Virus record (IMG/VR): IMGVR_UViG_3300017903_000243
Location: 1-43,589 of that record
Direction: 5' to 3' (one strand)
Source: a virus
Lineage: Duplodnaviria > Caudoviricetes
DNA: 43,589 nt
Shown here in pieces: positions 21,945 through 39,257 of the stretch. Position 1 is the first letter of the stretch. Each line of letters begins with the position of its first letter. The translations under genes and the position numbers were made by a program. Below the pieces are notes generated by a model. The model saw only the letters and a list, made by a program, of their open reading frames with translations, was not told the DNA's origin and did not search any database.

Positions 21945-21945
21945 A

Positions 21946-24200: not shown

Positions 24201-24351
24201 GGTTAACCTCACACTCTTCTACGACAATATCATCTATATCATACAAGCTTGTCATAAGTAAGTCTTGTATGACTTCACAGTTATTTCCGAATGTTTCTAA
24301 AAAGTTGGCATCAGGGTCAACTTTTATTTTTAAAGATATTTCAAACTCCAT
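24190..24351 (-). CDS. small acidic hypothetical protein, 53 aa (not in ORF track)
   Basis: MEFEISLKIKVDPDANFLE...LYDIDDIVVEECEVNRDK*; fills the gap and overlaps the mazG start. Confidence 0.65.
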   Translation of the reverse strand: MEFEISLKIKVDPDANFLETFGNNCEVIQDLLMTSLYDIDDIVVEECEVNRDK

Positions 24352-24362
24352 CGGAAAGACCC

Positions 24363-24602
24363 CTAGTTATACTCAGGAACATCTGGCATGTCAACAACTA
24401 ATGGTTCGATACTTTTCATAAAATGTTTTTTCCATTCGTATGCAGAATCAAAGTCATCAAACCAAAAATTATCTTCACCCATCACACCATCTATCTCTGA
24501 TTTACAGACGAGGAAATAGTTAGACCCTATCGGTACATCACTATCTTCTATATCCTCTACTGCTATTGGACCTTCCATAACGCCCCATACTTTTACCTTC
24601 AT
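24363..24602 (-). CDS. hypothetical protein
   Basis: 79 aa ORF tightly packed in the operon. Confidence 0.65.
   Translation of the reverse strand: MKVKVWGVMEGPIAVEDIEDSDVPIGSNYFLVCKSEIDGVMGEDNFWFDDFDSAYEWKKHFMKSIEPLVVDMPDVPEYN
24366..24394 (-). promoter_or_regulatory. sigma70-type promoter
   Basis: TTGACA-N17-TATAAC on the minus strand, facing the 53-aa ORF, mazG and nrdJ. Confidence 0.7.
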
Positions 24603-24603
24603 A

Positions 24604-24945
24604 CTATTTCCAATTTTTTAATAAGTCCATGTAGTGATCAAGACTTACCATTGTTATCCAATTCTTTCTATCAGCTCGAAAGAACACTACTGGTTCACCC
24701 TTCCCATGTTTACTAGCTTGCTCCATGTAATCATAGGCTGTTTTCATACCAGACTTTCTACGTTTAACTTCAATAGTTATCGGTAGCTTTTTTCTGGCTG
24801 CAGGAGATAGTTGAATATCCTCACCTGTATCTCCCATAGTTGTAGACTTGATGTCATCTTCTTCAAACTCTGGAAATGTTTCTAGCAGCTTGTCTCTGAT
24901 TTCATTCTGTCCAGTTCTACCTTTTGCTTTAGCTGCTCTTGACAT
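24604..24945 (-). CDS. Holliday-junction resolvase-like endonuclease
   Basis: 'AKAKGR..Q', 'MG..GEDI.LSPAA....P..IEVK' and 'EPVVFFR.DR'. Confidence 0.75.
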   Translation of the reverse strand: MSRAAKAKGRTGQNEIRDKLLETFPEFEEDDIKSTTMGDTGEDIQLSPAARKKLPITIEVKRRKSGMKTAYDYMEQASKHGKGEPVVFFRADRKNWITMVSLDHYMDLLKNWK

Positions 24946-25792
24946 TTGTTATCTCAGGAACTTTTGGTTCTTTCTCAACATGAACCAGATATTCAACACC
25001 GTAAGAGTATTGAAACTGTCTTAAATTAGGCCAACAAACTTTTTTGTATTCACAGAACTGACAAGACTTGTCTAGTTTAGTATTAGGACTGTTCTTACCT
25101 GCAGGTACTGGTTGAATACGATCCGCAGGTAGATCACCTGCAACTAACTCTTTAGCAGCTAGCATCTCAGCTTCTTTAGTCTCCAGATCTTTTGTAAAGT
25201 CATATACATCTAGACACATCTCACCACTAACTTTGTCAACTGCAAGAAATGCTCCGTGTGTCTTATTTGTCACAAGTGGATCATCTTTACCTGCATAGAC
25301 ATAAGAACTAAGTTGACTAATGTAACCAAAGGCATCGTTGTCTCGAAGACTACCTTCCTTAAACTTTTTAAAAGCATAAGAGCTGCAGGACTTAACATCA
25401 ACAGTCATACCATCAATAATACAGTCTCTGTGACCACGGATGCCATGAACATCAAGTCTGTCCTGAGAACCTTCAAGCTTATGACCAGAGGCTCGTACCA
25501 TAGCAAGAACTAACTCTTCGATCATATCACCATAGAAAAACCTAAGTAGTAAGTTAGCTGACAGTGGTTCACCAAGTGCAGGTTGATTTACTTTGTACCA
25601 AAGCTTACGTTTACAGGGTGTACCAACAGACGAAAGAGATAGATACCCACGAGGTTCTTGTGGCTTACTAAATCTTTTGTTGGCACTTATACCAATATTC
25701 TGACCAAGGTTCAGAGCAATTGAACGAGTCCAACCACCGAGTCCATATATCACAGACTCTATATCATCTATTAAAGTATCAATCTTTTTCAT
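24929..25792 (-). CDS. Cas4/RecB-like PD-(D/E)XK exonuclease
   Basis: 'CKRKLWY', 'GHRD..IDG..VDVKS', 'GY..QL..Y' and C-terminal 'CQFCEYKKVC'. Confidence 0.8.
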   Translation of the reverse strand: MKKIDTLIDDIESVIYGLGGWTRSIALNLGQNIGISANKRFSKPQEPRGYLSLSSVGTPCKRKLWYKVNQPALGEPLSANLLLRFFYGDMIEELVLAMVRASGHKLEGSQDRLDVHGIRGHRDCIIDGMTVDVKSCSSYAFKKFKEGSLRDNDAFGYISQLSSYVYAGKDDPLVTNKTHGAFLAVDKVSGEMCLDVYDFTKDLETKEAEMLAAKELVAGDLPADRIQPVPAGKNSPNTKLDKSCQFCEYKKVCWPNLRQFQYSYGVEYLVHVEKEPKVPEITNVKSS

Positions 25793-25803
25793 TTTGTATC
25801 CTT

Positions 25804-25830
25804 AAAAGGTAGCCCCCCGAAGGGGGCCAC
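25804..25830 (-). terminator. terminator after ssb
   Basis: Minus strand GTGGCCCCC-TTCG-GGGGGCTAC-CTTTT (cUUCGg loop). Confidence 0.8.
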
Positions 25831-25849
25831 TAGTTGTTTTTGGAGGAGG

Positions 25850-26356
25850 TTAAAACAACACTTCGCTTTGTTTTTCTGATTCAACTACAGGTGGTGGCGA
25901 AGCTTCATCCCCTGTAGTATCCGCTACGTAGGCAACATGATCAATAACCTTGACCTTGTCAAGTCGTGTGCCTACAATATTTGGTCGGCTTGTATCGTAA
26001 ACGGATAGCTCTACTTCTACAGTAGATCCGTTACCAATGGTGCCATCATCACTAAGGCTCCAAGTAGAACCATCAGACTTTTGAACAATAGGTGCACCAC
26101 TATCCCAATCCTTTCCTGTATTAAATTTACGTATAAACTTTACTTTAGTTCCACGTCCTTGTGGATCTGGTGATCCTTTTTTCATTGAACGAGAAGCTTT
26201 CAATGCAGTTAGATTATCATCATCCATGATAAGATCAATAGTGCAAGCACCGTCATGATCTCTATAGACTCCGTCAAAACCGTCCATGTCACGGTTAGAT
26301 TCAAATACTCTTGCCCATTCAGCAATTCCAGTCAATTTAACTTTACGTGTAGCCAT
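25850..26356 (-). CDS. ssb: single-stranded DNA-binding protein (T7 gp2.5-like)
   Basis: 'IGNGSTV' and 'RLDKVKVID' motifs, acidic tail ending in Phe; follows the DNA polymerase and has an AAGGAGG RBS. Confidence 0.75.
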   Translation of the reverse strand: MATRKVKLTGIAEWARVFESNRDMDGFDGVYRDHDGACTIDLIMDDDNLTALKASRSMKKGSPDPQGRGTKVKFIRKFNTGKDWDSGAPIVQKSDGSTWSLSDDGTIGNGSTVEVELSVYDTSRPNIVGTRLDKVKVIDHVAYVADTTGDEASPPPVVESEKQSEVLF

Positions 26357-26370
26357 TTGGCCCTCCTTTG

Positions 26371-28221
26371 TTAATGCACGTCACTATAACGTTGACCATA
26401 CTGTATGTCAATACCTAAGTCAACATTTAATTTCAATTCTTGGTTAAGTTTTTCAATAGCCCAGTTTAATGCATTACTGTGCTCATTTTGCTCTCCTTCT
26501 TTTACTAGGTTAATAGACTCGTCATGAAACTGACCAATGATGTTTGGTCTACGTGTTCGGTAGTAAGCAACCCACTTGTCAAAACAATATGCACCAGTAG
26601 ATTGATTAAGCGTAGAGAACACATCTTTTTCATAACGAAGCGAATGCCAGAAGCCACTTACAGGATTTTGTACCCACATCTCACCGTTGATCTGTCTTAC
26701 CTTTTGACCTTCAGAAAACTTTTTGACTGCCCAGTTACGTTTCCAATATGCGCCAAGTAAGCCTTGTGCTATTGGAAGGGGCATTCCAGTGGTTCGAGAT
26801 AACTTAGCTGCACCTACGCCATAAGTAGCTGAGTAATTTACAACTTTGTAATTTTTACGCATTGCTTTTAAATCATCTCGTTCATTTCTGTTATAAGCAT
26901 CAATGTCAGACTGGCTGATTTCACCTGCATGTTTAGCTAAATCAAGATGTGGGTCAAAACCTGCTTGAGACATTTCATGTACATACTTTGGATCATATGG
27001 CTGCATGTAGTGTCTCTTGGTCGTATCCTCAAGAGAAGTCATATCCGCACCACAAAGAACATAACCAGTTGGTGCTGTTAAGCAACCACGTATCTCTTTG
27101 CCCCACGGTCTGTCAACTCCTGGAAGATTGACCAAAGGTTTTTTATGTTTAAACCGTAAGGTGTTAGTAAGACCATCAATCTCAGCCCTAACGTAACCGT
27201 CTTGTTCGCAATCAAGAAATCCTTGAAAGATTCCAAGTCGGTGTTGCATCATAGTCAAACCCTCAAGCACTTGTACCTTTGGATTAGTTTCTGCGATTAG
27301 TTTTACTGAGTCTGTAAGTTCATTATCCTCACGAACTTGAGGTATTGTGCGTTCTGATCCATCATCTTCTTTTACATATTTAAATGTGCAAGGTTCCCAC
27401 CCTAAAGAGTAGAGCCAGTCCTTAACTTGGTCTGTAGAGTTAGGATTTGGATCTTCCCACTTCTTGATGACCTCTACTTCGCCATCAAAGTGTAAAGGCA
27501 AACCATTCTCTTGTAGGAGATCAAACCAACGTTGTCCATGAGCTGATGCAGTACCATCTTTTCTGAAACAATTCTTGGGTCTACTCTTTTTGGTGGTCAC
27601 TTTCCGCTTTGGCATTACGCTAATCAATTCAGCTTCTTTGTCAGCTTTTTGTTTTGTAAGATCGGCAACACACTTTTGTGCCAACTCTACATCTAACTTC
27701 CAACCAACTTTTTCAGCTGATGCTGCGCAATCCATTTTAAATTCAAGGTAGCGGAAAAACTTGTCTAGTTCGGATTTGCTTTTGTATAGAAACATAAACC
27801 TTTTTAGAAGATCTTGCCACAGGTACCAATTTATCTTTACATCTTCCGTACATCTATGTGCATACTCCTCCTGAGTTAAATTATTCCAGTCATTAATCTT
27901 AGGTTTTGGTATGTTAAAGTCCTCACCAAATGCTTCAAGATTGTGTTTATTTCCTGCACGAGTATAGTTAAGTACCCAAGACATAGGCAGAGTATCGAAC
28001 AAGCGAGCCTTGATCTTAATACCTAATATCTTTTCTATAAGCGGTACATCATATCTAATAATATTGTGACCAACCAACCCATGCTGAGACAGTATAAGAT
28101 CACGCATATCAGAATAATCGAAGATAGTTTTATAATCCTTTCCATCACTGGTATAAGACAGGCAGTGTATCTTTGTTGCTTTGTCCAACAATCCGTTAGC
28201 TTCTACATCAAATACAATCAT
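26371..28221 (-). CDS. polA: family A DNA polymerase with 3'-5' exonuclease
   Basis: ExoI 'FDVE', ExoII 'GHNIIRYD', ExoIII 'CTEDV'; motif A 'DMTSLE', motif B 'KVVNYSATYG', motif C 'FHDE'. Confidence 0.95.
   Translation of the reverse strand: MIVFDVEANGLLDKATKIHCLSYTSDGKDYKTIFDYSDMRDLILSQHGLVGHNIIRYDVPLIEKILGIKIKARLFDTLPMSWVLNYTRAGNKHNLEAFGEDFNIPKPKINDWNNLTQEEYAHRCTEDVKINWYLWQDLLKRFMFLYKSKSELDKFFRYLEFKMDCAASAEKVGWKLDVELAQKCVADLTKQKADKEAELISVMPKRKVTTKKSRPKNCFRKDGTASAHGQRWFDLLQENGLPLHFDGEVEVIKKWEDPNPNSTDQVKDWLYSLGWEPCTFKYVKEDDGSERTIPQVREDNELTDSVKLIAETNPKVQVLEGLTMMQHRLGIFQGFLDCEQDGYVRAEIDGLTNTLRFKHKKPLVNLPGVDRPWGKEIRGCLTAPTGYVLCGADMTSLEDTTKRHYMQPYDPKYVHEMSQAGFDPHLDLAKHAGEISQSDIDAYNRNERDDLKAMRKNYKVVNYSATYGVGAAKLSRTTGMPLPIAQGLLGAYWKRNWAVKKFSEGQKVRQINGEMWVQNPVSGFWHSLRYEKDVFSTLNQSTGAYCFDKWVAYYRTRRPNIIGQFHDESINLVKEGEQNEHSNALNWAIEKLNQELKLNVDLGIDIQYGQRYSDVH
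26383..26411 (-). promoter_or_regulatory. sigma70-type promoter for ssb inside the pol 3' end
   Basis: TTGACA-N17-TATAGT on the minus strand. Confidence 0.75.
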
Positions 28222-29831
28222 GCTGCCATATCACTCCTTTCATATGGAATCTCTTCAGATAAGATCGTAGTCTCTGGGTCGTAGTAGACTGAACCTGCTC
28301 TGCCAAGTTTAGCAAAGGGTCGGTTCTTATCAACTATAAACTCAGTCGTATTCTGCAGTATCTCATCTTCTGATTCTACATCTCTTTCGATCTTTATACA
28401 TATTATTGCTTCTTCTTCAAGAGAGGCTGCGTATTTTGTTCTACCATCATCATTAACCTGTGATATAAATACCACACCTATGTTTAGCTCTTTGGCTAAT
28501 TGTGCCATGCGTGAGCCAAGTGTAGTTAATGTACTGGTAGCACCGTCAACACCACTGTTAGATAGATAGGCTAGTCGTTGAACGTGATCAACAAAGACGT
28601 AGTCTGCACCAAAAGAAGTTACAGCCATTCGGGTGTAATCTAGTAAGCTCAGAGGATCATCGTGAGACTGCATCTCAAAAATGATCGTTCTGTTGTTCTC
28701 TGAGTCAGCAATCTTGTTTGCTGCTTCTTCTACTTGATCTAGGGTGTAGCCGTTGCGGTCAGCATCTTCATGAGTCCTAACATTACAGCCAAGGTGATAG
28801 GTAGCCATAGCTCGAAGAGTTGTAGACTTCATCTCCTCCATATGTAGTAATGCTATCTTAACGTTCTCATTGGATAATAGACCAGTCTCGAAGTATCGGA
28901 TCACCTCAGTCTTACCAGTACCACGAGGTGCTTTGATAAACGTCAAGCCACCCTTGACCATGCCACGGATCTTCTCATCAAGTCCTGAGTGACCAGTTGA
29001 TATATACTCGTATGGATTCTCGTTTCGCAAGGCAAGAGAAAAGTCATCACGAGAACAGAAGAAGTTCTCAGGGCTATACCGTTGAGGCTTCTTAGCTGCC
29101 CACATCAAGTCTTTACCATCACCTGCTTGTAAGAAGTCATTAGCATCTTTATGCTTAGACATCGGCACATACCAGAACTTATCTGGAAAGGCTTGATACA
29201 ACTTGTCTGCGGCTCTACGTCCTGCAGGATCTAATTCACCTGCATAGATAATCTCTTTGAAGGACGACAGATATAGGTAGTTGTGTTTAATAAACTTCTC
29301 ACCGATACTAGCAGACGGCAATGACTTTACAGGAAATGTCTTACCAAGTATCTGATAGAGTGATGCAGCATCGAACTCACCTTCAGTAAGATAGATGCGT
29401 TGGCTTGTCCCTGCGTTAAACTCAGGACCAAACAGGTGGTTCATACCCATGCCACGATCTTTTGTCCAAGACTTAGACTTATCATCTACCAGTCGATACT
29501 TGACTGTGTGTGGGTATTTGTATGCATACCTGACTGGTCTACCATCCTCACCGTTCTGTACAGCAATGCCATACAGTTCAGCAACGTCAGCGTCTAGCCC
29601 ACGTATGCCCTCATGCGTCTGGGACGCAATTGTTATATCCATAGGGTTTCTCCTCTCCTTTAATGGATACTCACTTTTTACCCAATCGAATACCTCTGGC
29701 ATATCTTTCATTGGGTAAGACCTAGAACAGGAGTGACAGTGACCATAGCCATCATCATTCCAGTTAAAGGCATCACTTGATCCACACTCAACATACGGAC
29801 ATGCCAGATGTGGATTATCGTTGCTCGCCAT
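28218..29831 (-). CDS. DNA primase-helicase (T7 gp4-like)
   Basis: Zn finger CPYVEC...CHSC, TOPRIM 'TEGEFD', 'KDAND', Walker A 'APRGTGKT', Walker B 'FVDH'. Start at ATG 29831 behind AGGAGG. Confidence 0.92.
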   Translation of the reverse strand: MASNDNPHLACPYVECGSSDAFNWNDDGYGHCHSCSRSYPMKDMPEVFDWVKSEYPLKERRNPMDITIASQTHEGIRGLDADVAELYGIAVQNGEDGRPVRYAYKYPHTVKYRLVDDKSKSWTKDRGMGMNHLFGPEFNAGTSQRIYLTEGEFDAASLYQILGKTFPVKSLPSASIGEKFIKHNYLYLSSFKEIIYAGELDPAGRRAADKLYQAFPDKFWYVPMSKHKDANDFLQAGDGKDLMWAAKKPQRYSPENFFCSRDDFSLALRNENPYEYISTGHSGLDEKIRGMVKGGLTFIKAPRGTGKTEVIRYFETGLLSNENVKIALLHMEEMKSTTLRAMATYHLGCNVRTHEDADRNGYTLDQVEEAANKIADSENNRTIIFEMQSHDDPLSLLDYTRMAVTSFGADYVFVDHVQRLAYLSNSGVDGATSTLTTLGSRMAQLAKELNIGVVFISQVNDDGRTKYAASLEEEAIICIKIERDVESEDEILQNTTEFIVDKNRPFAKLGRAGSVYYDPETTILSEEIPYERSDMAA

Positions 29832-29949
29832 TATTAGCCTCCTCTCGTTCTTTGGCTCTCTCACGTTCTTCTTTAGTCATAGGGCGTATCTCTTTTGATA
29901 TACCCTTTTTACGATCAATGTGCCACTCTCGTGGTTCCTGCTTTACCAT
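29815..29949 (-). CDS. small charged protein, 44 aa (not in ORF track)
   Basis: MVKQEPREWHIDRKKGISKEIRPMTKEERERAKEREEANNGEQR*; overlaps both neighbours. Confidence 0.5.
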   Translation of the reverse strand: MVKQEPREWHIDRKKGISKEIRPMTKEERERAKEREEANNGEQR

Positions 29950-29968
29950 AGCGGATTCATCATGTCAA
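29940..29968 (-). promoter_or_regulatory. possible sigma70 promoter upstream of primase
   Basis: TTGACA-N17-TAAAGC with extended TG. Confidence 0.5.
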
Positions 29969-30101
29969 ACAATTTATACCATGATGCTCCTTCTAAAGCT
30001 AGCCACATGAGAATCGGTACACCAAGTAAAAAGAATACGCAAGCTAAAAATGCCCAACCGAGACCTTTTGTCGTACAATAGTGTTCTTTATGTATCATCA
30101 T
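29943..30101 (-). CDS. small membrane protein, 52 aa (not in ORF track)
   Basis: MMIHKEHYCTTKGLGWAFLACVFFLLGVPILMWLALEGASWYKLFDMMNPLW*; GAGGG RBS and one TM helix. Confidence 0.65.
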   Translation of the reverse strand: MMIHKEHYCTTKGLGWAFLACVFFLLGVPILMWLALEGASWYKLFDMMNPLW

Positions 30102-30780
30102 ACGCCCTCAACGCTGTCCATGACTCAGGAAATAACTCCGTCATCTTATCTTCTATTTGTTCTGCCACAAGCCTAGTCTCATACTGAGTATCAGGCTTGA
30201 GCCGTAGTCCACACATTTTTGCAAATGCATACAGTGACCCTGACCAATACCATTCAGTCATCAAAGACAATGGCAGTACCATACGTGCCTGTTCGGGTGC
30301 AACACCTGCATCAATTAGATTGCGGTATGCTTCTAGAGTTTTACCATCTGATAAAGTTTGCACCGTTAGCGGTGATAGAGGAAACCTACCGTTTATATCT
30401 ACCATCTCAACAGTACCCTCACTACCTTGCTTCTTGTCGCTGCTTCTACCACGCCATACTTTAGGTTGATAAAACTCAGGCTCACTGTCAACATAACGTC
30501 TACTAATCTCATTCCAAGGCATATACTCATGCTTCTGTAGCTGACGTGCTACAAAGATAGGAGCTTTAACATGGAACGTAGCAAAGCAGTGGTTGAACGG
30601 TGACTTATGGTGATGCCTAGCTAGATAGGATATTAACTTAACATCGTTGTGCTCTAACACTAACTGTTCACCAGTGTGAATCCTTGGCATCCAACTAGAC
30701 TCTTTACCAAAGCTGACTCTCGCTGCATTGACCACAGACAAGTCACTACCCATATGGTCAATATAAGTTACTTCAATCAT
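30088..30780 (-). CDS. thyX: flavin-dependent thymidylate synthase
   Basis: 'VNAARVSF', 'HKSPF', 'APIFVARQL.KH....NEISRRY', 'APEQARMVLP' and 'QYETR'. Confidence 0.95.
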   Translation of the reverse strand: MIEVTYIDHMGSDLSVVNAARVSFGKESSWMPRIHTGEQLVLEHNDVKLISYLARHHHKSPFNHCFATFHVKAPIFVARQLQKHEYMPWNEISRRYVDSEPEFYQPKVWRGRSSDKKQGSEGTVEMVDINGRFPLSPLTVQTLSDGKTLEAYRNLIDAGVAPEQARMVLPLSLMTEWYWSGSLYAFAKMCGLRLKPDTQYETRLVAEQIEDKMTELFPESWTALRAYDDT

Positions 30781-31178
30781 TTATCCTCCTTATAAAATAT
30801 GTGTGAACCTAAAGTCACAGTTTTTTGATAGTGTTTACTCCAGAATGGTCTAACATAATTAGCATGGTAATACAAAGATCCATCGGTATTGTCCTTCATA
30901 TACCCACGCACTACGTTATGTGCAACCAGTTTAGAAAGTGCCCATGCTATTTCATCTTTTGGTTTATCTGACTTACCGTCACAGTACCAACTGAACTGGC
31001 ACTTACCTCTACCTTTTTCCAGACCTTGATATATCACAGAGCATGCATCATCGGGAAACTTGTCACTGGCTACACGATTAAGCACAACGTGAGCCACACC
31101 TACTTGGCTTTCCAATGGCTCACTACGTGCCTCGTAATATACGTTGAGTGCTATACATGTAAGCATCTCAGCTATCAT
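30777..31178 (-). CDS. SleB-like cell wall hydrolase (Hydrolase_2)
   Basis: 'CIALNVYYEARSE...VAHVVLNRV...FP...C.VIYQ...CQFSW...YYHA.YV.P.W...G.HIFY'. Confidence 0.9.
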   Translation of the reverse strand: MIAEMLTCIALNVYYEARSEPLESQVGVAHVVLNRVASDKFPDDACSVIYQGLEKGRGKCQFSWYCDGKSDKPKDEIAWALSKLVAHNVVRGYMKDNTDGSLYYHANYVRPFWSKHYQKTVTLGSHIFYKEDK

Positions 31179-31348
31179 TGCTGCACATCCACCTCTAGAC
31201 AAGCCACTGTCTCAGACTTGTGCGTTATCATCTTAGCTGCTTTACTCAACTCAATCTGACACTCTTCCAGTGTGGCATAAGTACCAAGTTGGTAGTGTTC
31301 AACAGACTGTGTGCTGAACAGTTGCATCCATACTAATACATACATCAT
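31175..31348 (-). CDS. small protein, 57 aa (not in ORF track)
   Basis: MMYVLVWMQL...Y.TLEEC...VACLEV; AGGAG RBS and ATGA overlaps at both ends. Confidence 0.65.
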   Translation of the reverse strand: MMYVLVWMQLFSTQSVEHYQLGTYATLEECQIELSKAAKMITHKSETVACLEVDVQQ

Positions 31349-31482
31349 TCTTCTATCTCCTTTCCTTTATGCTTCTTCTTTCTAGGCACTACACCTTTCT
31401 TTCGATCAGGTATAGCTCGTTGTTTATACTTTGGTTGCCGAAGGTCTTTTGCCATCGGGTTTTTAATGTATCGGTCCTTCAT
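31345..31482 (-). CDS. basic 45-aa protein, ArfA-like (not in ORF track)
   Basis: MKDRYIKNPMAKDLRQPKYKQRAIPDRKKGVVPRKKKHKGKEIEE*. Confidence 0.55.
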   Translation of the reverse strand: MKDRYIKNPMAKDLRQPKYKQRAIPDRKKGVVPRKKKHKGKEIEE

Positions 31483-31657
31483 ACCAGTCATCCCAGTTTA
31501 CCTCAAGCTCTTTGTGAAACCTAATATCAGCCGCCATTAAAAAGAATAAGGCGGCAAGCTCCATTGCATACTCATCTTTAATCACACCTTCTGAGAATAG
31601 CCTACCATATTTTTCAAAAGTTTCTACAGGTATCTCCCTATCTTTTCTTTTCTTCAT
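31463..31657 (-). CDS. hypothetical protein
   Basis: 64 aa with an ATGA overlap with the recombinase stop. Confidence 0.6.
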   Translation of the reverse strand: MKKRKDREIPVETFEKYGRLFSEGVIKDEYAMELAALFFLMAADIRFHKELEVNWDDWYEGPIH

Positions 31658-32538
31658 TCTCTTTGTCTCCTCTCTAGTGCAGACTTTGCGGTTTTTAAAC
31701 TAAATTTATTATACGGATTTAGACTGGTTACGTTCTTATGACCAGACACAGATTGTATTGCCAGATGATCAACTCCACTCTCAATCATTTGTACAATTGC
31801 AGTCTTACGTAGATCACCTACTCTCAGCTCATCAGGAAGCCCTGCAGTAGCCTTAACTTCTGCCAGTAGTCCAGTCATCTGGGAAACCGTTAGCGGTCTG
31901 TAGGCATCATCTGAGGCTCTGTGGTGAGGTACTACGTATTCCTGAAAGTCCCAGTCACCTTTCTGCTCAGTGAGCATGGTATGTAAGTTGTCAGGTATTG
32001 GCAACTCTACCTCAGCTCCACGTTTAGTCTGTTTGATTTCTACAACTCTCTTATCAAGGTCAATATTGTCCCAAGTTAGATTACGAATATCTATTGGGCG
32101 TTGACCCCACTCATAGCACATCAATACGATCAGCCCGATATTACGCCATTCAAATTTAGTAAAGGCGGTATCGAGAAATGATAATACCTGATCATGCGTC
32201 CATATGACAGACCGAGGTTCGCTCTGACGTTTCTTAACTCTAGCCATTGGATTGAGTATCATTATCTCCATTGCGATAAGATAATTAATGAGAACTGAAA
32301 ACACCCTAGCGTTATGGTTCGCATTAGCAGTGGATGTTTCCAACTCCCACGTATCGTATATCTCAGAGCACATTGCTACACTCAGTCTGTCTAGCTGAAC
32401 GTTGCCGAGCTTTCTTCCCATAACAGACATACGACAGAAAGCTAGTAGACACGACTCGTAGTTCTTTTGCGAGGAACTAGAGAGAGAGTTGAACTGACGA
32501 GTGTGGAGATAATTGTCTACAGCTTTATTAAATTTCAT
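31654..32538 (-). CDS. tyrosine recombinase / integrase
   Basis: N-terminal SAM-like core-binding region; catalytic R (GQR), K (QTKR), 'GDLRKT' in place of HxLR, H (SGHK) and Y (NPY). Confidence 0.9.
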   Translation of the reverse strand: MKFNKAVDNYLHTRQFNSLSSSSQKNYESCLLAFCRMSVMGRKLGNVQLDRLSVAMCSEIYDTWELETSTANANHNARVFSVLINYLIAMEIMILNPMARVKKRQSEPRSVIWTHDQVLSFLDTAFTKFEWRNIGLIVLMCYEWGQRPIDIRNLTWDNIDLDKRVVEIKQTKRGAEVELPIPDNLHTMLTEQKGDWDFQEYVVPHHRASDDAYRPLTVSQMTGLLAEVKATAGLPDELRVGDLRKTAIVQMIESGVDHLAIQSVSGHKNVTSLNPYNKFSLKTAKSALERRQRE

Positions 32539-32588
32539 ATCTTTCCTATCCAATGTGAGCAGTCATCATGTGGGTCATCTACTTCCAT
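32535..32588 (-). CDS. 17-aa micropeptide MEVDDPHDDCSHWIGKI coupled to the recombinase
   Basis: AGGAGGT RBS at 32593-32599; its TGA overlaps the recombinase ATG (ATGA). Confidence 0.55.
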   Translation of the reverse strand: MEVDDPHDDCSHWIGKI

Positions 32589-32598
32589 AGGCACCTCC

Positions 32599-32680
32599 TA
32601 CTCTAAGGAACCTATAGTTATACTTAAAGTATTTAATATTACTACTATAAATATTAAAAAACTTTAAGTTACTTAAAGTA
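32599..32680. repeat. palindrome array 1 (WACTTWAAGTW units flanking an AT-rich spacer)
   Basis: TACTTAAAGTA at 32621 and 32670, AACTTTAAGTT at 32660, degenerate units at 32599 and 32609; spacer contains ATTACTACTAT. Confidence 0.8.
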
Positions 32681-32726
32681 TATATAAAATATACTATTCC
32701 TACAAAAGATCAAGTGTGACATGTCG

Positions 32727-33695
32727 TCACATGTATTTCTTCCAATACTTATCATTACCATAATTGTCTGAATAGTTGTAGTAAGCAGACATATCATCAA
32801 TGTGGCATTCTTCCATAAGACTGTGCGGAGTAAAGCCATATTGGTCAAGCAGCTCTGCAACTCTGGTTGGGTAGTCAATGATAAGTTGCTCAAGAGCAAA
32901 AGTATTATCGTCATCGTAATCATACTTGTAACCGTACTTGTCATCACGTTGATACAAGTCCTCAACCTTGGATGCATCACGCTCGAACACTAGACCAGAC
33001 CAGTCAGCTTGACACAGTGCAATCAGTAATTCATCAGCATAATCAAGGTCTTGCACCTCATTCTTAGTGTGTTGATTGTAGTAGCCAACACTGATATTTG
33101 TACACTCAGATACCACTGAAGCATACTCATTGCTGTCAGTATAAGAGCCAGTATTGTCAGGTTGTAGTAGTGGCATATTTACAACACTTGCAAAAGATTT
33201 TGCAAAGTTATCGGATGCAGTACGCAGTCCCATCTGGTGTGTGATTACAGAGTTCTGACCCTTGCGATCAAAAGATATTACTGCGTCAATATGACCCAAC
33301 CAATCAGGCTCAGACATTATCAGATTAGAGCTACCCTGACAGCCAGATTCTTCTGCTGCATGGATAACATAGACACCTTGTACACCGAACTCAATCATGC
33401 CGAGGATCAGCCATACACCAGTGGTGCAGTCAGCACCTAGACAGTTAGAGTCAGAGTGATTAGATATAGATATTACATCATTCATAATGATCAGCTTTTG
33501 GAAGCCATCATCTTTGTGTACAGTGTCATGGTGTGCGGTAAAACATAGATTAGGTTCGTCACCTATGATCTTGATATAATTACCGAATTGGTCAGGCTTA
33601 CCGAATGTAGGTTCGAGAAACCTCTTACAAAAAGCTCGCTGCGTAGCACTACCCTCTGGGCGTTTGTAACGCAACATTTCTACTAGACTATGCAT
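32727..33695 (-). CDS. M28/M20-like zinc metallopeptidase
   Basis: 'AHHDTVH', 'LGADCTTG', 'AAEESG', 'FDRKG', 'YTDS' and 'GYYNQHT' metal-ligand pattern. Confidence 0.8.
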   Translation of the reverse strand: MHSLVEMLRYKRPEGSATQRAFCKRFLEPTFGKPDQFGNYIKIIGDEPNLCFTAHHDTVHKDDGFQKLIIMNDVISISNHSDSNCLGADCTTGVWLILGMIEFGVQGVYVIHAAEESGCQGSSNLIMSEPDWLGHIDAVISFDRKGQNSVITHQMGLRTASDNFAKSFASVVNMPLLQPDNTGSYTDSNEYASVVSECTNISVGYYNQHTKNEVQDLDYADELLIALCQADWSGLVFERDASKVEDLYQRDDKYGYKYDYDDDNTFALEQLIIDYPTRVAELLDQYGFTPHSLMEECHIDDMSAYYNYSDNYGNDKYWKKYM

Positions 33696-35308
33696 TAGTC
33701 ATTCTCCTCTTTCTTTTTCCATATATTTTTTTCTTCATCATATTCACGATTATCATCTTTAGCCTCATCAATGGATACGGTATCACCAGTATCTGTGGTA
33801 GCCATAAGCTCATCGGGATATATCTCACCATCCCAGTCAGATATGAAGTAAGTACCTGCATCAAGAGCACGTTGACTGATGTAGGTGTCCTCATGCTCAC
33901 AGTAGTAGGCTAGGTCAATATGCCAATACTCTTGATCATTCTCACAGTACATGAAGTAGTCACCATACTCAACAGCCCACTCACTGACAATCTCTTGAGC
34001 ATAGCCATTTCTATTAGAGTAAGGTACATAGACCGTGTAAGATTCGTTGCGATGGTAATCTGCATCTGCATACTCACAGTAGAAGTGCTCGTCATAGTAG
34101 CAGTCATTGCAGTAATAGGCATCATTGTACTCGCTGTAGTATGACTCATCCTCACTCAAACCTGAGTTGCAAGACTCACAGTAACATGCATGGTCATTGA
34201 GGATACCTGAGTAGCCATTGGCATCAATACAACCGTGAGAATCAATAACAAGATACTCACCATCATCAGTCAGTCTGCGTGGCTCAGGGTCAAGGTATGG
34301 TGCATAGAAAGCATCAGGATCATCTTCTGTGGGTTGACGTAGCAACCTAGCACCTACCCATGCATCATCAGCACCATACTCACCGTTGGGTGTAGCTAGG
34401 ATATGTTGCTCTAGCATATCTATTGCTTGCTCTGACACACCATATATCGGACCGCCTCTGTATTGTCCGTCAGGCATGACACGAACCACACAACGAGATG
34501 CGATCTTACCGTCTGAGTCCTCTGTCCATAGCATCTGGAAGTCACCACTTGCGTATGCTGTGACTGGATGTACAGGCAAGTGATCGAAGTCATACCGCAT
34601 ACATGATGATGCACTAGACTTACGTTGATAAGTGGTACTGATGTTGTCAGTAGGGGCTTGCGTCCATGAATAGGCTTTGACAAAATCTTTGGCATCTGCG
34701 CCCTCCCTAATAAATAACTCACGTTTAGCAAACCTGTTAAGGTACATGTCAGTGAGTTCAATAACTTGTTTGTGTTCTAGCTCAGGAAACATCATAGAAA
34801 ATGCACGAGCTGGCTTCATGGCAACCTCACGGTCACGCTCAAAGCGATCACGAGCAGATTGATACATGGTAATCTTAGGTGCAAACCGTTTGGATCTGCG
34901 AGGTGCAAAGCATCGTAGACGTAATGTACCCTTGACCTCAGCCTTTTGACCATGACCAGTGACTTGAAGATAGGCACGATCAAACCATGCGATGAATGTA
35001 TCGTCACGATTACGAAACATATCCACATCATCATAGTTGCCCCATGCCTTGAGCACAGGGTCAATCTCGTCAGGTGCAGACCAGTCACGCTTGACTACAA
35101 AGCCATTCTGTTGTGGATAAGACACCAAGTAACGAAACTCACCGATGTAGATAACAGCACCACGCAACTCTTTGGTGTTGTCGTAGTGTACGTTTATCTC
35201 AGGATGAGATACATCGTAGTTCTCGTACAATGTAACCTGTTCGGCAAGATGTGCATTGTATGCAGCAATCTTGTCCATATCATTAGGCATGATCCAATAT
35301 TTAGCCAT
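33695..35308 (-). CDS. uncharacterised protein with SCM motif and acidic Cys/Tyr-rich Zn-finger-like repeats
   Basis: 537 aa: 'SSCMRY', 'IASRCVV', 'APYLD', 'CESC...YYCNDC...FYCEY'. Confidence 0.7.
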   Translation of the reverse strand: MAKYWIMPNDMDKIAAYNAHLAEQVTLYENYDVSHPEINVHYDNTKELRGAVIYIGEFRYLVSYPQQNGFVVKRDWSAPDEIDPVLKAWGNYDDVDMFRNRDDTFIAWFDRAYLQVTGHGQKAEVKGTLRLRCFAPRRSKRFAPKITMYQSARDRFERDREVAMKPARAFSMMFPELEHKQVIELTDMYLNRFAKRELFIREGADAKDFVKAYSWTQAPTDNISTTYQRKSSASSCMRYDFDHLPVHPVTAYASGDFQMLWTEDSDGKIASRCVVRVMPDGQYRGGPIYGVSEQAIDMLEQHILATPNGEYGADDAWVGARLLRQPTEDDPDAFYAPYLDPEPRRLTDDGEYLVIDSHGCIDANGYSGILNDHACYCESCNSGLSEDESYYSEYNDAYYCNDCYYDEHFYCEYADADYHRNESYTVYVPYSNRNGYAQEIVSEWAVEYGDYFMYCENDQEYWHIDLAYYCEHEDTYISQRALDAGTYFISDWDGEIYPDELMATTDTGDTVSIDEAKDDNREYDEEKNIWKKKEEND

Positions 35309-35309
35309 G

Positions 35310-35801
35310 TCAGTTCCTCCATTCTGGCTCTCTACCCCAACGCCATGTCAAGGTAATATTGTTTTCTTTCCAACGATCATTCATATACATACGATATGCT
35401 TCATGCACATCTGGATGTTCTGAATAATCAACTCCACGTTCTAAATTCCTAGCACAGTTAGCAAACGGTGTCAAGTCTTCACTAGGAAAATATCCAGTAA
35501 AACTATATTGATCCAAGTCTGGTATGAGTTCACCAGATTTATGATTGCCACCTTTTTGTAGATAAAGGTGAGCCATATGACTAAGCAACCACTTGAAGTT
35601 TTCTCGTGATTGCCTAGCCCAGATTGTACAAGGGTGGTTCAAGTACGCAACCTTGTACACTGATAAGTCAGTATCTGGACACAGTACACGCACTGCGGTA
35701 GACAACATCTGTGCAGACTCAAGAATCATCTTGTTCTTACGGATGTCGTCTAACCACCATGCAGACTGCATCGGACACTTATCCAATGCGAATATATTCA
35801 T
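35310..35801 (-). CDS. pyrimidine dimer DNA glycosylase-like protein
   Basis: 'MNIF.LD..P..SA..LDD...KMILESAQMLST...NHPCTIWARQS..NF.WL'. Confidence 0.75.
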   Translation of the reverse strand: MNIFALDKCPMQSAWWLDDIRKNKMILESAQMLSTAVRVLCPDTDLSVYKVAYLNHPCTIWARQSRENFKWLLSHMAHLYLQKGGNHKSGELIPDLDQYSFTGYFPSEDLTPFANCARNLERGVDYSEHPDVHEAYRMYMNDRWKENNITLTWRWGREPEWRN

Positions 35802-36296
35802 TTACATTAAGTCCTTTCCATTTAGATCTTGAACTACTTGCTCTAGCAGATAGGTTGCATCTTTCAACTTATCTTCTAAAACTGCTATCCTACCTTTGAG
35901 ATCACCATTCTCCATCTTGGTCATAACAAAGTCACGTCTCTCACGCTTTTGCATGGTAGGTTGTAGACCCTCCATGTATAGATTGTAACCAAGAGACTTG
36001 TTGCGATAGCCTAGTTCTCTACGCCATTTACACACCGTATCTATTGATATATCAAACATTTTAGAGGTCTCAATTCCTGTGTGATTATCATAATATTGAC
36101 ACACCTCATGTTTAAAGTCAGAACTAAACCTAGAACGACCTTTGATAAAGCCTAGCTTTTTTGACCAATTAACCACACTACAGACTGACACATTAAACTC
36201 TCTAGCTGTGTTATAAACATCGTGCGTTTTATAAAAGTCAACGACTATTGCTTTGTACTCATCAGAAAAACGCTTACCATTTTTAGAATTACCCAT
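35802..36296 (-). CDS. tandem HTH DNA-binding protein with coiled coil
   Basis: Two repeats 'RFS..(Y/F)K..V..(F/Y)Y..H....T...F.(V/I)S...V..W...LG' plus a leucine-zipper-like C-terminus. Confidence 0.7.
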   Translation of the reverse strand: MGNSKNGKRFSDEYKAIVVDFYKTHDVYNTAREFNVSVCSVVNWSKKLGFIKGRSRFSSDFKHEVCQYYDNHTGIETSKMFDISIDTVCKWRRELGYRNKSLGYNLYMEGLQPTMQKRERRDFVMTKMENGDLKGRIAVLEDKLKDATYLLEQVVQDLNGKDLM

Positions 36297-36306
36297 AATA
36301 AATCTC

Positions 36307-36432
36307 CTACAATTTGGGTTTCACTTCTACCTTAAATCCTTTGGACTTAAGCACTCTTACGGTCTTATCGACCTCACGCAATGGGAATGAGCAAATGCAC
36401 TTCCCATCTACATACAACCAGACGTATCTCAT
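36307..36432 (-). CDS. small early protein, 41 aa (not in ORF track)
   Basis: MRYVWLYVDGKCICSFPLREVDKTVRVLKSKGFKVEVKPKL*; ATGA overlap with the upstream gene. Confidence 0.55.
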   Translation of the reverse strand: MRYVWLYVDGKCICSFPLREVDKTVRVLKSKGFKVEVKPKL

Positions 36433-36647
36433 TCGTTAGACACAATACGACTGACGGTATCCTCTACTAACTTTATTTCACCATCGGGCAAATGCAACTC
36501 AAGTTCCATATCGGTATGCCCGAAGTCACTATCCATGCGTTGTAGTCTTTGCACGATTTCATTGAGACTGCTACCAGTTTCATCCAACATTACTGCACCG
36601 TTGTCAGTCTCATACCAACCAGTTAAAATTACACTATGATTTTGCAT
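36429..36647 (-). CDS. hypothetical early protein
   Basis: 72 aa in a packed operon. Confidence 0.6.
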   Translation of the reverse strand: MQNHSVILTGWYETDNGAVMLDETGSSLNEIVQRLQRMDSDFGHTDMELELHLPDGEIKLVEDTVSRIVSNE

Positions 36648-36750
36648 TTTTCATTATCCCTTCACAGATTGCACGGATGCGAGTGATGACAATAACTTTA
36701 CCATTGTCACCATACAGCACCCACTTTTTACCATTATACACTAATTGCAT
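36634..36750 (-). CDS. small early protein, 38 aa (not in ORF track)
   Basis: MQLVYNGKKWVLYGDNGKVIVITRIRAICEGIMKNAKS*; fills the gap between ORFs. Confidence 0.5.
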   Translation of the reverse strand: MQLVYNGKKWVLYGDNGKVIVITRIRAICEGIMKNAKS

Positions 36751-36752
36751 AA

Positions 36753-37040
36753 CTACACTAATTCAGATGGTTTATGCAAGCTATAATATTGTGCCCCATC
36801 AGCCCAATAATAATAGTCACGTTCAAAGTTAATGACTTCCATTACAGACGCATTGACTGTGAATGACCGTTCAAACTTTTGCCCATCGCAGTCACTTCCC
36901 CAAGTAAACACACCTATTTTACCACCTTCCTTAAATGAGTTGATACGATACCATAGGTGTTCTCTAGCTAGTAACCAGTCACCATTACCGTAGCTTTTGC
37001 ACTGTTTACGCAATGCCCTTTTCATCTCTTGAGTTATCAT
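36753..37040 (-). CDS. hypothetical early protein
   Basis: 95 aa with AAGGG RBS. Confidence 0.65.
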   Translation of the reverse strand: MITQEMKRALRKQCKSYGNGDWLLAREHLWYRINSFKEGGKIGVFTWGSDCDGQKFERSFTVNASVMEVINFERDYYYWADGAQYYSLHKPSELV

Positions 37041-37061
37041 GTTTTCCCTTTCTCTCTCAGA

Positions 37062-37114
37062 TTAACATGAGAAAACACCCGACAGAATACTATCGGGTGC
37101 TTATCCAATATTAA
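37062..37114 (-). promoter_or_regulatory. long intergenic hairpin, RNase III site-like
   Basis: ~24-bp stem (GCACCCGATAG/CTGTCGGGTGT core) whose mismatches are G-U pairs on the minus strand. Confidence 0.6.
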
Positions 37115-37135
37115 ACAAAGTGTTATATTATAACA

Positions 37136-37666
37136 TTACGCTGCAAGTTTAGCGGCATCAGCAGCAACTTTTGCAAGTTTAGCATTATTTTCAGCAACTT
37201 TCTGGGCTTGCTGCAATGCTGCAATCATAGCACCAATACGGTCTGGATTGCGCTTGACTTGGTTTTCAGCCCATTTGATAGCGTCAAATTCTTTTGCTTC
37301 AGTATCAATACTGAAAGCTTTAGACCATTTAGAACCACGCATTGAAGTACCATCAGCAACTAACTGGTTTAATGTATCAACTGCACTATTTGTTAGTGTA
37401 GCATTTTTAGTTTTAATGCGATACTGGTTAGTTTTCTTATCAATATTGATACTAACACCAGACCATATTGATCTGATAGTCAATTCAAAGTTAGTAGCAC
37501 CATCTTTTTTAGATTTAATCTTATCTAACATCATAGCGATAATTGAAGTATCACCAGTTTTGATTGCATGGTTTACAGCGTCAAGAGTGTTTTGACCCAT
37601 TGCAATACCGTTGCCTAAGTTACGTGAAAAGTTACCTACGAATTTTGAAATATTTGTTACACTCAT
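37136..37666 (-). CDS. first early-arm protein, unknown function
   Basis: 176 aa, GGAG RBS, ends ...AADAAKLAA. Confidence 0.75.
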   Translation of the reverse strand: MSVTNISKFVGNFSRNLGNGIAMGQNTLDAVNHAIKTGDTSIIAMMLDKIKSKKDGATNFELTIRSIWSGVSINIDKKTNQYRIKTKNATLTNSAVDTLNQLVADGTSMRGSKWSKAFSIDTEAKEFDAIKWAENQVKRNPDRIGAMIAALQQAQKVAENNAKLAKVAADAAKLAA

Positions 37667-37711
37667 TTTTAATCTCCATTTTATATGAGTTTACGTTACC
37701 GATATAACAGA

Positions 37712-37788
37712 ATGTTATACCGTCAATGTACTACATGAATACATTGAAAGTATAACATAGGGCATCAAGTATAAAACTTAATGCCCTA
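37712..37788 (-). promoter_or_regulatory. two adjacent hairpins (processing/termination-like)
   Basis: ATGTTATAC..TCAATGTA/TACATTGA..GTATAACAT (37712-37758) and TAGGGCATCAAGT/ACTTAATGCCCTA (37758-37788). Confidence 0.55.
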
Positions 37789-37789
37789 A

Positions 37790-38298
37790 AACTTTTTATC
37801 TTATAGCGTTTATTCGTACTGATTAAACCTAGTTAATGGCTCAATCAAAATAGCCGTTTGATATAGAAAGTTTGCCTATACCGCACCACTATTTAGAACT
37901 ATTACTTTTTTCGTTTCGAGTTTTGCGTTTGCTACCCGTGACCCTTTATCAACCTATTGTCTATACTTAGGCATCTCAAATACTGAGGACTGTTTCTATA
38001 TGAAACCACGCTTTTCGCTTAGACATAATCTAAACTAGTTTGAGCTATACCCTAAGACACTATTTGAATACTTACCTTCGGAGTAAGTAACAACTAGAAT
38101 TGTTTTAGCTGAATATCGGTCAATGCGGTGTTACCATAACCGCATGTCAGTTTACTGTAACTAAATGTTACTATGGATAGATCTACTAGTTAAATCACTG
38201 ACTAAAAATAACCGTGCAGTGTAGACCTAAAATTTCAAATAACGTGGACTTACAAGTGAGGCCTAATGCTAAAACAGCTCCGACTAATGCTATGCCAT
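37790..38298 (-). ncRNA. candidate large structured non-coding RNA / leader
   Basis: No credible ORF; nested long-range pairings and many hairpins downstream of a promoter. Family unknown. Confidence 0.45.
38231..38244 (-). promoter_or_regulatory. boxA-like antitermination motif
   Basis: CGTTATTTGAAATT ~55 nt after the predicted start, resembling rrn boxA (GCTCTTTAACA/GTTCTTTGAAA type). Confidence 0.4.
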
Positions 38299-38304
38299 AA
38301 GACC

Positions 38305-38370
38305 GTGTTAAACTAATTGAAAAATAGCGTCAAGTAAAAAAATAAAAAAAAGATAAAAATAATTTTTCAT
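38305..38370 (-). promoter_or_regulatory. early promoter with UP-element-like tract
   Basis: TTGACG (38328-38333)-N17-TAACAC (38305-38310), preceded by a long T-rich tract on the minus strand. Confidence 0.55.
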
Positions 38371-38710
38371 AGTACAAAAACGACAAGTAAATGTTCTGTT
38401 TACGACATAAAATGAGCTGGAATTAGTCATATTCAAATTATTGAATTTACTCTCAGACTGGCTGTATTAGCTCGCTATGAGTTTCCTATGAGCTGCGGTA
38501 TAACTGATGCTGAATTTTTAAGGTAACTCAGCGGTCTTTATATTGGCGCTATGTTCAAATTTATTTTGTAATTCTGGCTGTATTTTGGCTATGTTCACTC
38601 TCAGGAAACTTTCCTAGTAGGAACATTCGTGCACCCACAGGAACTATGATAGTATTCACGGTTTGTTCTCTTGTTCTTGTTCTGTTCTGATGTACATAAA
38701 CTTTTTGTTT

Positions 38711-38873
38711 TTGCGAATGGTTCGCAAGTATAACGTAATGTTATAACATAACAGCCCCCATCTAATAGTATATTGTATAAAATATTCAATGTTTTGAATA
38801 TGTTACGTATTCGAATATGTGAATATGTTTTTTGATAGTAGTCTGTGAGATAAATGTTATGTTATAACGTAAC
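38711..38873. repeat. cluster of palindromes and inverted repeats (probable genome-end region)
   Basis: TTGCGAA-TGG-TTCGCAA; 19-bp inverted pair 38735-38753 / 38855-38873 (17/19) built on TGTTATAAC; GAATATGT x3. Confidence 0.6.
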
Positions 38874-39046
38874 GGGTGCATGGGTCACTGGGGGTATGCC
38901 CGTATGTATATATACCCAATGACAGAAATGGGGTTTTTTAGTTTGGACAAATTGTCGCACCTTTTACTAAAAATACCCTGTTAACCTTTATTTTGTGATC
39001 ACATTTAGTAAATTACAACGTTTTTAAAAATAAATAAAAATAGGAC

Positions 39047-39075
39047 TTGACTTCGGGGGCAACATACATTATAAT
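39047..39075 (+). promoter_or_regulatory. sigma70 promoter
   Basis: TTGACT-N17-TATAAT with an A-tract upstream. Confidence 0.8.
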
Positions 39076-39077
39076 TA

Positions 39078-39185
39078 TACTTAATGTATTACTTAAAGTA
39101 ACCTTAAGTAACTTAAAGTTTATTAATTACTACTATTATTAATAGTTATTAAATACTTAAAGTAACTTTAAGTATACTTAAAGAC
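39078..39185. repeat. palindrome array 2 (WACTTWAAGTW units flanking an AT-rich spacer)
   Basis: Units at 39078, 39090, 39100, 39110, then a spacer with ATTACTACTAT, then units at 39154, 39164, 39175. Confidence 0.85.
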
Positions 39186-39225
39186 AAAAATTACAATTTT
39201 TTTTTGTCGTAGCACATAAAAAGTG

Positions 39226-39254
39226 TTGACTTTACCAAAAAATTTAGGTATAAC
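39226..39254 (+). promoter_or_regulatory. sigma70-type promoter
   Basis: TTGACT-N17-TATAAC(TAG), the same -10 context as the 24366 promoter. Confidence 0.7.
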
Positions 39255-39257
39255 TAG

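What the first reader, a model, noticed from the sequence alone, without database searches (positions are those of the whole stretch)
37790..38333. Candidate ~500-nt ornate non-coding RNA transcribed first, from an rrn-like promoter with boxA
Seen (minus strand): UP-like tract, TTGACG-N17-TAACAC, then a boxA-like CGTTATTTGAAATT and ~600 nt with no credible ORF before the first gene. Domain 1 is closed by 38268-38276 pairing with 38101-38109 (9 bp perfect, extendable via G-U only on the minus strand) and encloses GTCAGT/ACTGAC and ATGCGGT/ACCGCAT stems. A TACTTAC/GTAAGTA hairpin follows (38069-38089). Domain 2 is closed by 38044-38057 with 37799-37807 and 38033-38041 with 37825-37834, and holds several small hairpins plus an alternative CTTAGG/CCTAAG pairing (possible pseudoknot). 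It ends at strong hairpins. Established: phages encode large structured RNAs of unclear function (GOLLD, ROOL) and RNA antiterminators (put, nut). Inference: a new phage ncRNA class (antiterminator, decoy or anti-defence sponge) and the best candidate for an undescribed system here.
Basis: partly seen in the sequence, partly recalled or inferred. Interest (0 to 1): 0.8.

Follow-up and report, generated by a model that had tools for sequence, protein, structure and literature searches.

The report
Pseudoknotted phage leader RNA behind boxA
A group of uncultured marine phages begins its early genes with a copy of the bacterial ribosomal-RNA "keep transcribing" signal (boxA) followed by about 450 bases whose pairing is conserved and that match no catalogued RNA family; this RNA likely helps the host's RNA polymerase read on into the phage's early genes, though it could instead act as a molecule of its own.

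Summary
Real and uncatalogued; function untested. The gene-free stretch heads the early arm of a roseophage-like podovirus related to HMO-2011-type phages. I found 33 distinct full-length copies, all directly upstream of the same first gene on the same strand. The 3' domain covaries strongly (24 of 39 pairs with compensatory changes, 95% of cells paired), with conserved G-U pairs that fix the strand and favour RNA. The boxA call holds: 30 of 30 rRNA leaders from the family of a Phaeobacter genome carry the motif, two in a form identical to phage copies. No Rfam match. Best reading (0.45): a cis-acting antitermination leader, T7-like in its boxA but far larger than put or nut. Close rival (0.35): an independent non-coding RNA transcribed rRNA-style. 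No expression data were available. This scan has noted boxA plus a large folded RNA in other phages' early leaders, but not this sequence.

The parts
38335..38368 (-). A/T tract, UP-element-like
   Evidence: sequence; similar tracts in relatives
38305..38333 (-). candidate early promoter, TTGACG-N17-TAACAC; -35 kept in 5 other copies, -10 not conserved; start site not mapped
   Evidence: not flagged by the sigma-70 scan
38246..38304 (-). variable 5' extension at the rrn boxB position; can form hairpin 38304-38296/38268-38260, or pair 38276-38268 with 38109-38101 in this subclade
38231..38244 (-). boxA of alphaproteobacterial rrn type
   Evidence: 30 of 30 rrn leaders from the family of Phaeobacter genome G001 carry the motif; only minus-strand match in the window
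38118..38229 (-). 5' domain: P1 38229-38221/38186-38178, pseudoknot 38202-38197/38151-38146, hairpin P3 38145-38123, 5' strand of long-range helix P4 38122-38118
37944..38117 (-). variable middle domain (about 105-210 nt among copies) with hairpins 38089-38069, 38034-38018, 38006-37992 and helices 38059-38039/37980-37958
37918..37943 (-). 3' strand of P4 (37943-37939) and hairpin 37937-37918
37805..37906 (-). 3' domain: three-way junction closed by 37906-37896/37815-37805; long arm with conserved U-G/G-U pairs and AA bulge; second arm 37847-37820
   Evidence: de novo covariation; pair counts
37758..37788 (-). hairpin A, covarying, with only a weak T tail
37712..37758 (-). hairpin B, 19-bp arms with a 2x2 internal loop, RNase III-site-like (inferred); seen only in this subclade
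37136..37666 (-). gene 1, 176 aa, basic (net +9, pI 9.8), no known family or fold; ribosome-binding site 37677-37672
37065..37102 (-). hairpin plus T tract after gene 1, intrinsic-terminator-like
   Evidence: found in 28 of 28 copies with enough downstream DNA, and in 12 of 16 relatives with other leaders

Best explanation
The stretch is the untranslated leader of the phage's early arm, made of a host-type rRNA boxA followed by a conserved pseudoknotted fold of about 450 nt, and it likely works in cis on the host RNA polymerase that is transcribing it, so that transcription would continue through the terminator-like hairpin after gene 1 into the 17-kb early arm. Shown: position, strand, fold and identity of the boxA motif with host-family rrn boxA. 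Inferred step 1: nascent boxA binds NusB-NusE and nucleates the rrn-type Nus complex, which suppresses Rho termination and chaperones folding. Inferred step 2: the folded RNA stays tethered to the polymerase and adds processivity, either alone (put- or EAR-like) or as the binding site of the basic gene-1 protein, which sits where lambda N sits. Inferred step 3: the hairpins before gene 1 separate leader from message, possibly by RNase III cleavage.
For: 33 of 33 full-length copies lie directly 5' of a gene-1 homologue on the same strand, including those found by DNA pattern with no positional anchor. The boxA motif matches 30 of 30 host-family rrn leaders; L574 and L562 each equal four phage copies letter for letter over 15 nt. 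No strong terminator or conserved promoter lies between the RNA and gene 1. The window encodes no recognisable RNA polymerase (48 proteins scanned; record 79% complete). A hairpin plus T tract follows gene 1 in 28 of 28 testable copies, and in the window only about 25 nt separate it from the next gene, so that gene probably needs read-through. Precedents: T7 boxA antitermination element after the early promoters (PMC3709561 passage); put, EAR and the rrn elongation complex (PMC8632103 passages). Different leaders occupy the same slot in relatives, as nut/N and put do among lambdoid phages (recalled).
Against: No transcript or read-through data. T7 and contig L123 carry boxA without a large RNA, so antitermination alone does not explain 450 nt. 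The terminator-like hairpin is not specific: 12 of 16 relatives with other leaders have one, including short-leader L234 and L288, while L048 and L031 have a boxA-led RNA and no strong hairpin (no shuffle control). 15 of 29 relatives anchored on flanking genes have neither this RNA nor boxA, yet run a comparable early arm. The most conserved core lies 245-443 nt downstream of boxA, and put is only about 65 nt. Gene 1 is predicted well folded (pLDDT 85) with six scattered arginines, unlike the extended lambda N.
Confidence: 0.45

Rival explanations
1. The fold is an independent non-coding RNA, made first and abundantly from the strongest early promoter. BoxA would serve its Nus-assisted synthesis and folding as for rRNA. 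It would be cut from the gene-1 message at the 3' hairpins and act in trans (counter-defence decoy, host-factor sponge or scaffold), possibly as a particle with the gene-1 protein.
For: Size and architecture (conserved junction core, variable peripheral domain, pseudoknot, conserved G-U pairs) resemble ribozymes and GOLLD/ROOL more than put. BoxA tracks the RNA, not the early arm: 14 of 14 loci with leader family 1 or 2 versus 0 of 15 others. The RNA is accessory: none of six cultured relatives' leader regions matches it. Hairpin A could protect a processed 3' end, and RNA plus gene 1 form a unit bounded by a terminator-like hairpin. Leader type broadly follows gene-1 type (3 label changes against a shuffled mean of 12.3), though adjacency alone explains that.
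Against: Never found away from the leader position (33 of 33), whereas GOLLD and ROOL often sit near tRNA islands. No terminator of its own with a good U tract. The RNase III-like hairpin B is confined to one subclade. No expression data.
Confidence: 0.35
2. The leader controls gene 1 after transcription (autoregulation by the basic gene-1 protein, or mRNA stabilisation), with boxA only protecting the long untranslated region from Rho.
For: Invariant adjacency to gene 1. In the window the 3' arm of hairpin B has an alternative partner just upstream of the ribosome-binding site (I23). BoxA-mediated translational repression is known at E. coli suhB (PMC5725501 passages).
Against: boxA lies about 560 nt from the ribosome-binding site, and the covarying core ends about 130 nt before it. 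The region next to the ribosome-binding site differs between subclades.
Confidence: 0.1
3. The pairing matters as single-stranded or cruciform DNA near the genome end (ejection pause, packaging or origin), not as RNA.
For: The element lies in the gap that holds AT-rich palindromes conserved among relatives (39090-39180).
Against: U-G in 30 of 30 and G-U in 30 of 30 and 27 of 30 rows at three core pairs would be A-C mismatches on the other strand. A pseudoknot and a boxA are RNA-level features. The element is absent from half of the relatives.
Confidence: 0.04

Closest known systems
T7 early leader boxA antitermination element
   Same: Host rrn-type boxA between early host-polymerase promoter and first gene (T7 813-823, between A3 at 750 and gene 0.3 at 925; function stated in PMC3709561).
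   Different: T7 has about 100 nt between boxA and gene 0.3; here about 565 nt with a pseudoknotted multi-domain fold. Alphaproteobacterial boxA variant. No phage RNA polymerase found in the window.
rrn operon leader (boxB-boxA-boxC; NusA/B/E/G, SuhB, S4)
   Same: Same boxA motif as host-family rrn leaders, hairpin before it, long untranslated structured RNA after it.
   Different: The RNA after boxA is not rRNA or a 16S leader; no boxC tested; no match to the 3'-domain model in 151 genomes of that family (a search without a positive-control genome).
Lambda pL-nutL-N-tL1 and HK022 put; B. subtilis EAR
   Same: Layout promoter, RNA signal, first gene, terminator; RNA-based antitermination precedent (PMC8632103 passages).
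   Different: No small boxB after boxA; gene 1 is predicted folded and lacks an arginine-rich motif; put is about 65 nt with two hairpins and no boxA.
GOLLD and ROOL RNAs
   Same: Phage-encoded, large, ornate, pseudoknotted, conserved 3' part and variable 5' part (as said of GOLLD), function unknown (bioRxiv 2024.12.08.627333 passages).
   Different: No Rfam match; shorter than GOLLD; fixed in an early leader behind boxA; no tRNA in the window.

Membership tests
rrn-type boxA | sequence matches the host family's rrn boxA | tested here: met
   30 of 30 rrn loci carry G[CTA]TNTTTGANA 241-338 nt before the 16S 5' primer site; two equal phage variants exactly; the window's own 15-mer is not among the 30 exactly
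rrn-type boxA | lies near the 5' end of a transcript from a strong promoter | tested here: inconclusive
   candidate -35 lies 89 nt upstream; -10 not conserved; start not mapped
rrn-type boxA | hairpin (boxB) upstream, boxC downstream | tested here: inconclusive
   upstream hairpins are predicted but differ among copies; boxC not looked for
rrn-type boxA | binds NusB-NusE and confers Rho resistance | not testable with these tools
   needs binding or reporter assays
lambda nut/N system | boxA followed by a small boxB hairpin bound by an arginine-rich N protein | tested here: not met
   boxA runs into a 9-bp helix enclosing a pseudoknot loop; gene 1 has six scattered arginines and a confident fold; no PHROG match
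lambda nut/N system | layout promoter, RNA site, first gene, terminator | tested here: met
   the terminator-like hairpin is also present in relatives without this RNA
HK022 put | about 65-nt double hairpin | tested here: not met
   element is about 450 nt with pseudoknot and three-way junction
HK022 put | factor-independent antitermination in cis | not testable with these tools
   needs in vitro transcription
GOLLD / ROOL / OLE | match to the Rfam covariance model | tested here: not met
   no hit at gathering score in the window; none over 37790-38333 at E up to 10; none in five relatives at E up to 1
GOLLD / ROOL / OLE | large ornate structure with pseudoknots supported by covariation | tested here: met
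GOLLD / ROOL / OLE | abundant discrete transcript | not testable with these tools
   no read data were available
group I/II intron, RNase P RNA, tmRNA, riboswitch | match to Rfam models or ARAGORN | tested here: not met
   no conserved tag-like reading frame

The most novel reading that the evidence does not exclude
A new class of large phage RNA, transcribed like rRNA on the hijacked host Nus complex, that pairs with the adjacent fold-orphan gene-1 protein to form a first-made ribonucleoprotein for host takeover or counter-defence; several unrelated RNA families are swapped at this slot in one of the ocean's abundant phage groups.
Probability: 0.3. Interest if true: 0.85.

Novelty: new variant of a known kind. 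Interest (0 to 1): 0.62.

Why it matters
Large structured phage RNAs (GOLLD, ROOL) still have no known function, and RNA-only antiterminators are known from very few cases. This family comes with a covariation-supported core, a testable host signal (boxA) and a fixed partner gene, so clean mutants are easy to design. If it is an antiterminator it is several times larger than put. If it acts in trans it is a new phage RNA class expressed the way rRNA is. At least two boxA-led RNA families, and other long leaders, occupy the same slot in relatives of HMO-2011-type phages.

Tried and rejected
Rfam at gathering and E-value thresholds: no relevant hit. ARAGORN: none. blastn of three leader versions against 50,697 phage records: only a 40-nt match for the window's version, none for the other two, so no cultured carrier was found. 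Leader regions of six isolates (CRP-9, -207, -2, -603, -13, HMO-2011): no HMM, model or boxA hit. 3'-domain model R1: no hit in leader family 2 or the other long leaders, and 0 of 151 genomes of the Phaeobacter family (no positive control). Homology of family 2 beyond boxA and a similar loop is therefore not shown. A tmRNA-like tag or small ORF was considered: the frame is not conserved. Group I and group II D5 likenesses were judged by eye from recalled motifs and dropped. Pattern scans returned many chance hits: 10 of 13, most of 120 and of 94. Gene-1 fold: no PDB match at E 0.001, weak hits to uncharacterised phage proteins, best Z 6.4 on part of the model, no named Atlas cluster above 0.77; this does not show the fold is new. 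Sense-strand C/G ratio of the elements (median 0.79) equals that of the early arm (0.76), so it does not discriminate. Supplements of PMC10690425: no motif hit, but 3 of 6 held files were not searched and 3 more were unreadable, so a fragment may be among its 29-151 nt candidates. Expression was left open.

Full report
Context. The window is a 43.6-kb virus record, 79% complete. Structural genes lie on the plus strand (33-20822), a replication arm on the minus strand (20851-37666), and a gap runs from 37667 to 39257. The integrase is 42% identical to that of HMO-2011, the 84-aa gene beyond the gap 67% to CRP-9, and the DNA polymerase 53% to CRP-6. That mix fits the recombinant roseophage type described in the abstract of PMC8528129. 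The host is not shown. The flagged stretch lies directly before the first gene of the minus-strand arm.

Observation. The listed motifs are present. Folding of the single sequence is only modestly better than shuffles (z -2.34; opposite strand -1.87). Rfam and ARAGORN give nothing over the element.

Homologues. Relatives came from flanking proteins and DNA patterns. A profile gave 38 distinct matches above 60 bits. I kept 33 distinct full-length copies, the window included (one start corrected). Ten loci were dropped: four were short at the 3' end, five end too close upstream to hold a boxA, and one (L427) has 704 nt upstream with no boxA match. The boxA was a selection criterion for the 33, so the fair count is 33 of 34 with room. 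All 33 lie directly upstream of a gene-1 homologue on the same strand, with no conserved ORF (longest ATG frames 16-73 aa).

Structure, 3' domain. On an alignment of 30 copies (L003 and L169 left out for a large insertion, L440 as a duplicate in this stretch), my own tree-based covariation test ranked 14 canonical pairs first, six at E 0.05 or less (60 simulations, not R-scape). For the named structure, 95.4% of cells pair and 24 of 39 pairs show changes on both sides; 0 of 500 shuffles reach this, and slid controls pair at 36-41%. The domain is a three-way junction at 37906-37805 whose long arm has U-G in 30 of 30 and G-U in 30 of 30 and 27 of 30 rows. Caveat: these core letters were part of the patterns, so invariance is partly by construction. 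Twelve of the 30 rows (the window and 11 found through flanking proteins) do not depend on those patterns and show the same core.

Structure, 5' and middle. GTCAGT/ACTGAC is a perfect 6-bp match in 25 of 33 copies, in 11 sequence variants, against 3.8% for shuffled upstream sequence. Its 5' strand lies inside helix P1 and its 3' strand outside, so it is a pseudoknot; P1 has 7 bp or more in 24 of the 28 copies where the pairing was located. Five copies carry a different 5' domain, so the leader is mosaic. A long-range helix (38122-38118/37943-37939) reaches 5 bp in 26 of 33 (no control) and encloses a variable domain of about 105-210 nt. One hairpin there was found 18 times, in 8 stem variants.

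BoxA. A genome scan with a phage variant of the motif returned 120 loci; the two with a 16S gene downstream were both Alphaproteobacteria. I then took the 30 best-scoring rRNA loci from the 82 matching genomes among 121 searched in the family of that Phaeobacter genome. All 30 carry the motif 241-338 nt before the 16S primer site; two equal phage variants over 15 nt; the window's own variant is not among them exactly but fits the pattern, and it is the only minus-strand match in the window. It parallels the gammaproteobacterial consensus given in PMC5725501 (passages). T7 carries such a boxA between promoter A3 and gene 0.3, described as an antitermination element in PMC3709561 (one passage).

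Relatives with other leaders. Among 29 loci anchored on genes beyond the gap, 10 carry this RNA, 4 a second boxA-led family, and 15 neither; boxA is present in 14 of 14 against 0 of 15. Family 2 (eight loci, five or six distinct) shows its own compensatory changes by eye but does not match model R1. Several others have unrelated 400-600 nt leaders or short ones. Contig L123, of unestablished relation, has boxA directly before a ribosome-binding site. Six isolates' leaders do not match.

Downstream. Hairpin A is conserved but has a weak T tail; hairpin B is confined to the window's subclade. A hairpin plus T tract follows gene 1 in 28 of 28 copies with enough DNA (five lacked it), but also in 12 of 16 relatives with other leaders and 1 of 5 isolates, and not clearly in two family-2 loci (no shuffle control). 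Gene 1 is basic and predicted well folded, with no known family or fold.

Mechanism. Shown: place, strand, fold, boxA identity. Inferred: Nus recruitment by boxA (well precedented; PMC8632103 passages). Open: what the fold does. I favour a cis-acting processivity element (0.45) because it is never displaced from the leader, has no good terminator of its own and is exchanged for other leaders at the same slot. An independent RNA made rRNA-style (0.35) is nearly as good, because boxA tracks the RNA rather than the early arm, the RNA is dispensable in relatives, and its size and core resemble GOLLD and ROOL (bioRxiv 2024.12.08.627333 passages). Regulation of gene 1 (0.10) and a DNA-level role (0.04) are weaker. 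Expression could not be examined.

Novelty. Ten paper searches (listings and abstract starts) found no description of this RNA. PMC10149686 and PMC12629253 contain neither 'non-coding' nor 'intergenic'. PMC10690425 lists phage candidates of 29-151 nt (passages); its alignment files could not be searched, so a fragment may be there. PMC9378689 (put) was seen only as a listing and abstract start. Verdict: an uncatalogued RNA family on a known boxA design; new variant of a known kind; interest 0.62.

Noticed in passing
window 37703-37719, 38729-38753, 38852-38874, 37118-37140: Repeated palindromic TATAAC-N5-GTTATA-type motif, one just before the gene-1 ribosome-binding site and one at the gene-1 stop; operator-like, and the phage has a tyrosine integrase at 31654-32553.
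   Followed up: no
window 39090-39180: AT-rich palindromic cluster conserved in three close relatives, with similar tracts in more distant ones; possible genome end, packaging or late-promoter region.
   Followed up: no
L048:4090-4460 (-), L031, L052, L231, L281, L598: Second boxA-led structured leader family of about 330-400 nt before a different gene-1 type; no match to model R1 or Rfam.
   Followed up: partly
L233, L254/L286, L257/L261, L264/L276/L282/L290/L291 and CRP-9 end (L399): Further unrelated-looking 350-600 nt untranslated leaders at the same slot, without the boxA motif.
   Followed up: no
L123 and L155 (pattern hits): BoxA between a single hairpin and the ribosome-binding site of a first gene, a T7-like short leader.
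   Followed up: partly
G001 (Phaeobacter sp.): 21 boxA-like sites against 4 for the reversed control; boxA may be used beyond rRNA in roseobacters.
   Followed up: no
L461, L471 (Rhodospirillaceae MAG): Two boxA matches behind similar promoter-like sequences, followed by GC-rich hairpins and no 16S gene.
   Followed up: no
L003:3715-3800 and L169: An insertion of about 75 nt extends the apical loop of the conserved long arm without disturbing the model match.
   Followed up: no
L231 gene 1: C-terminal part nearly identical to that of L249 while the N-terminal part and leader differ, suggesting recombination inside gene 1.
   Followed up: partly
window 20825-20847: Bidirectional terminator-like hairpin where the two gene arms converge.
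   Followed up: no
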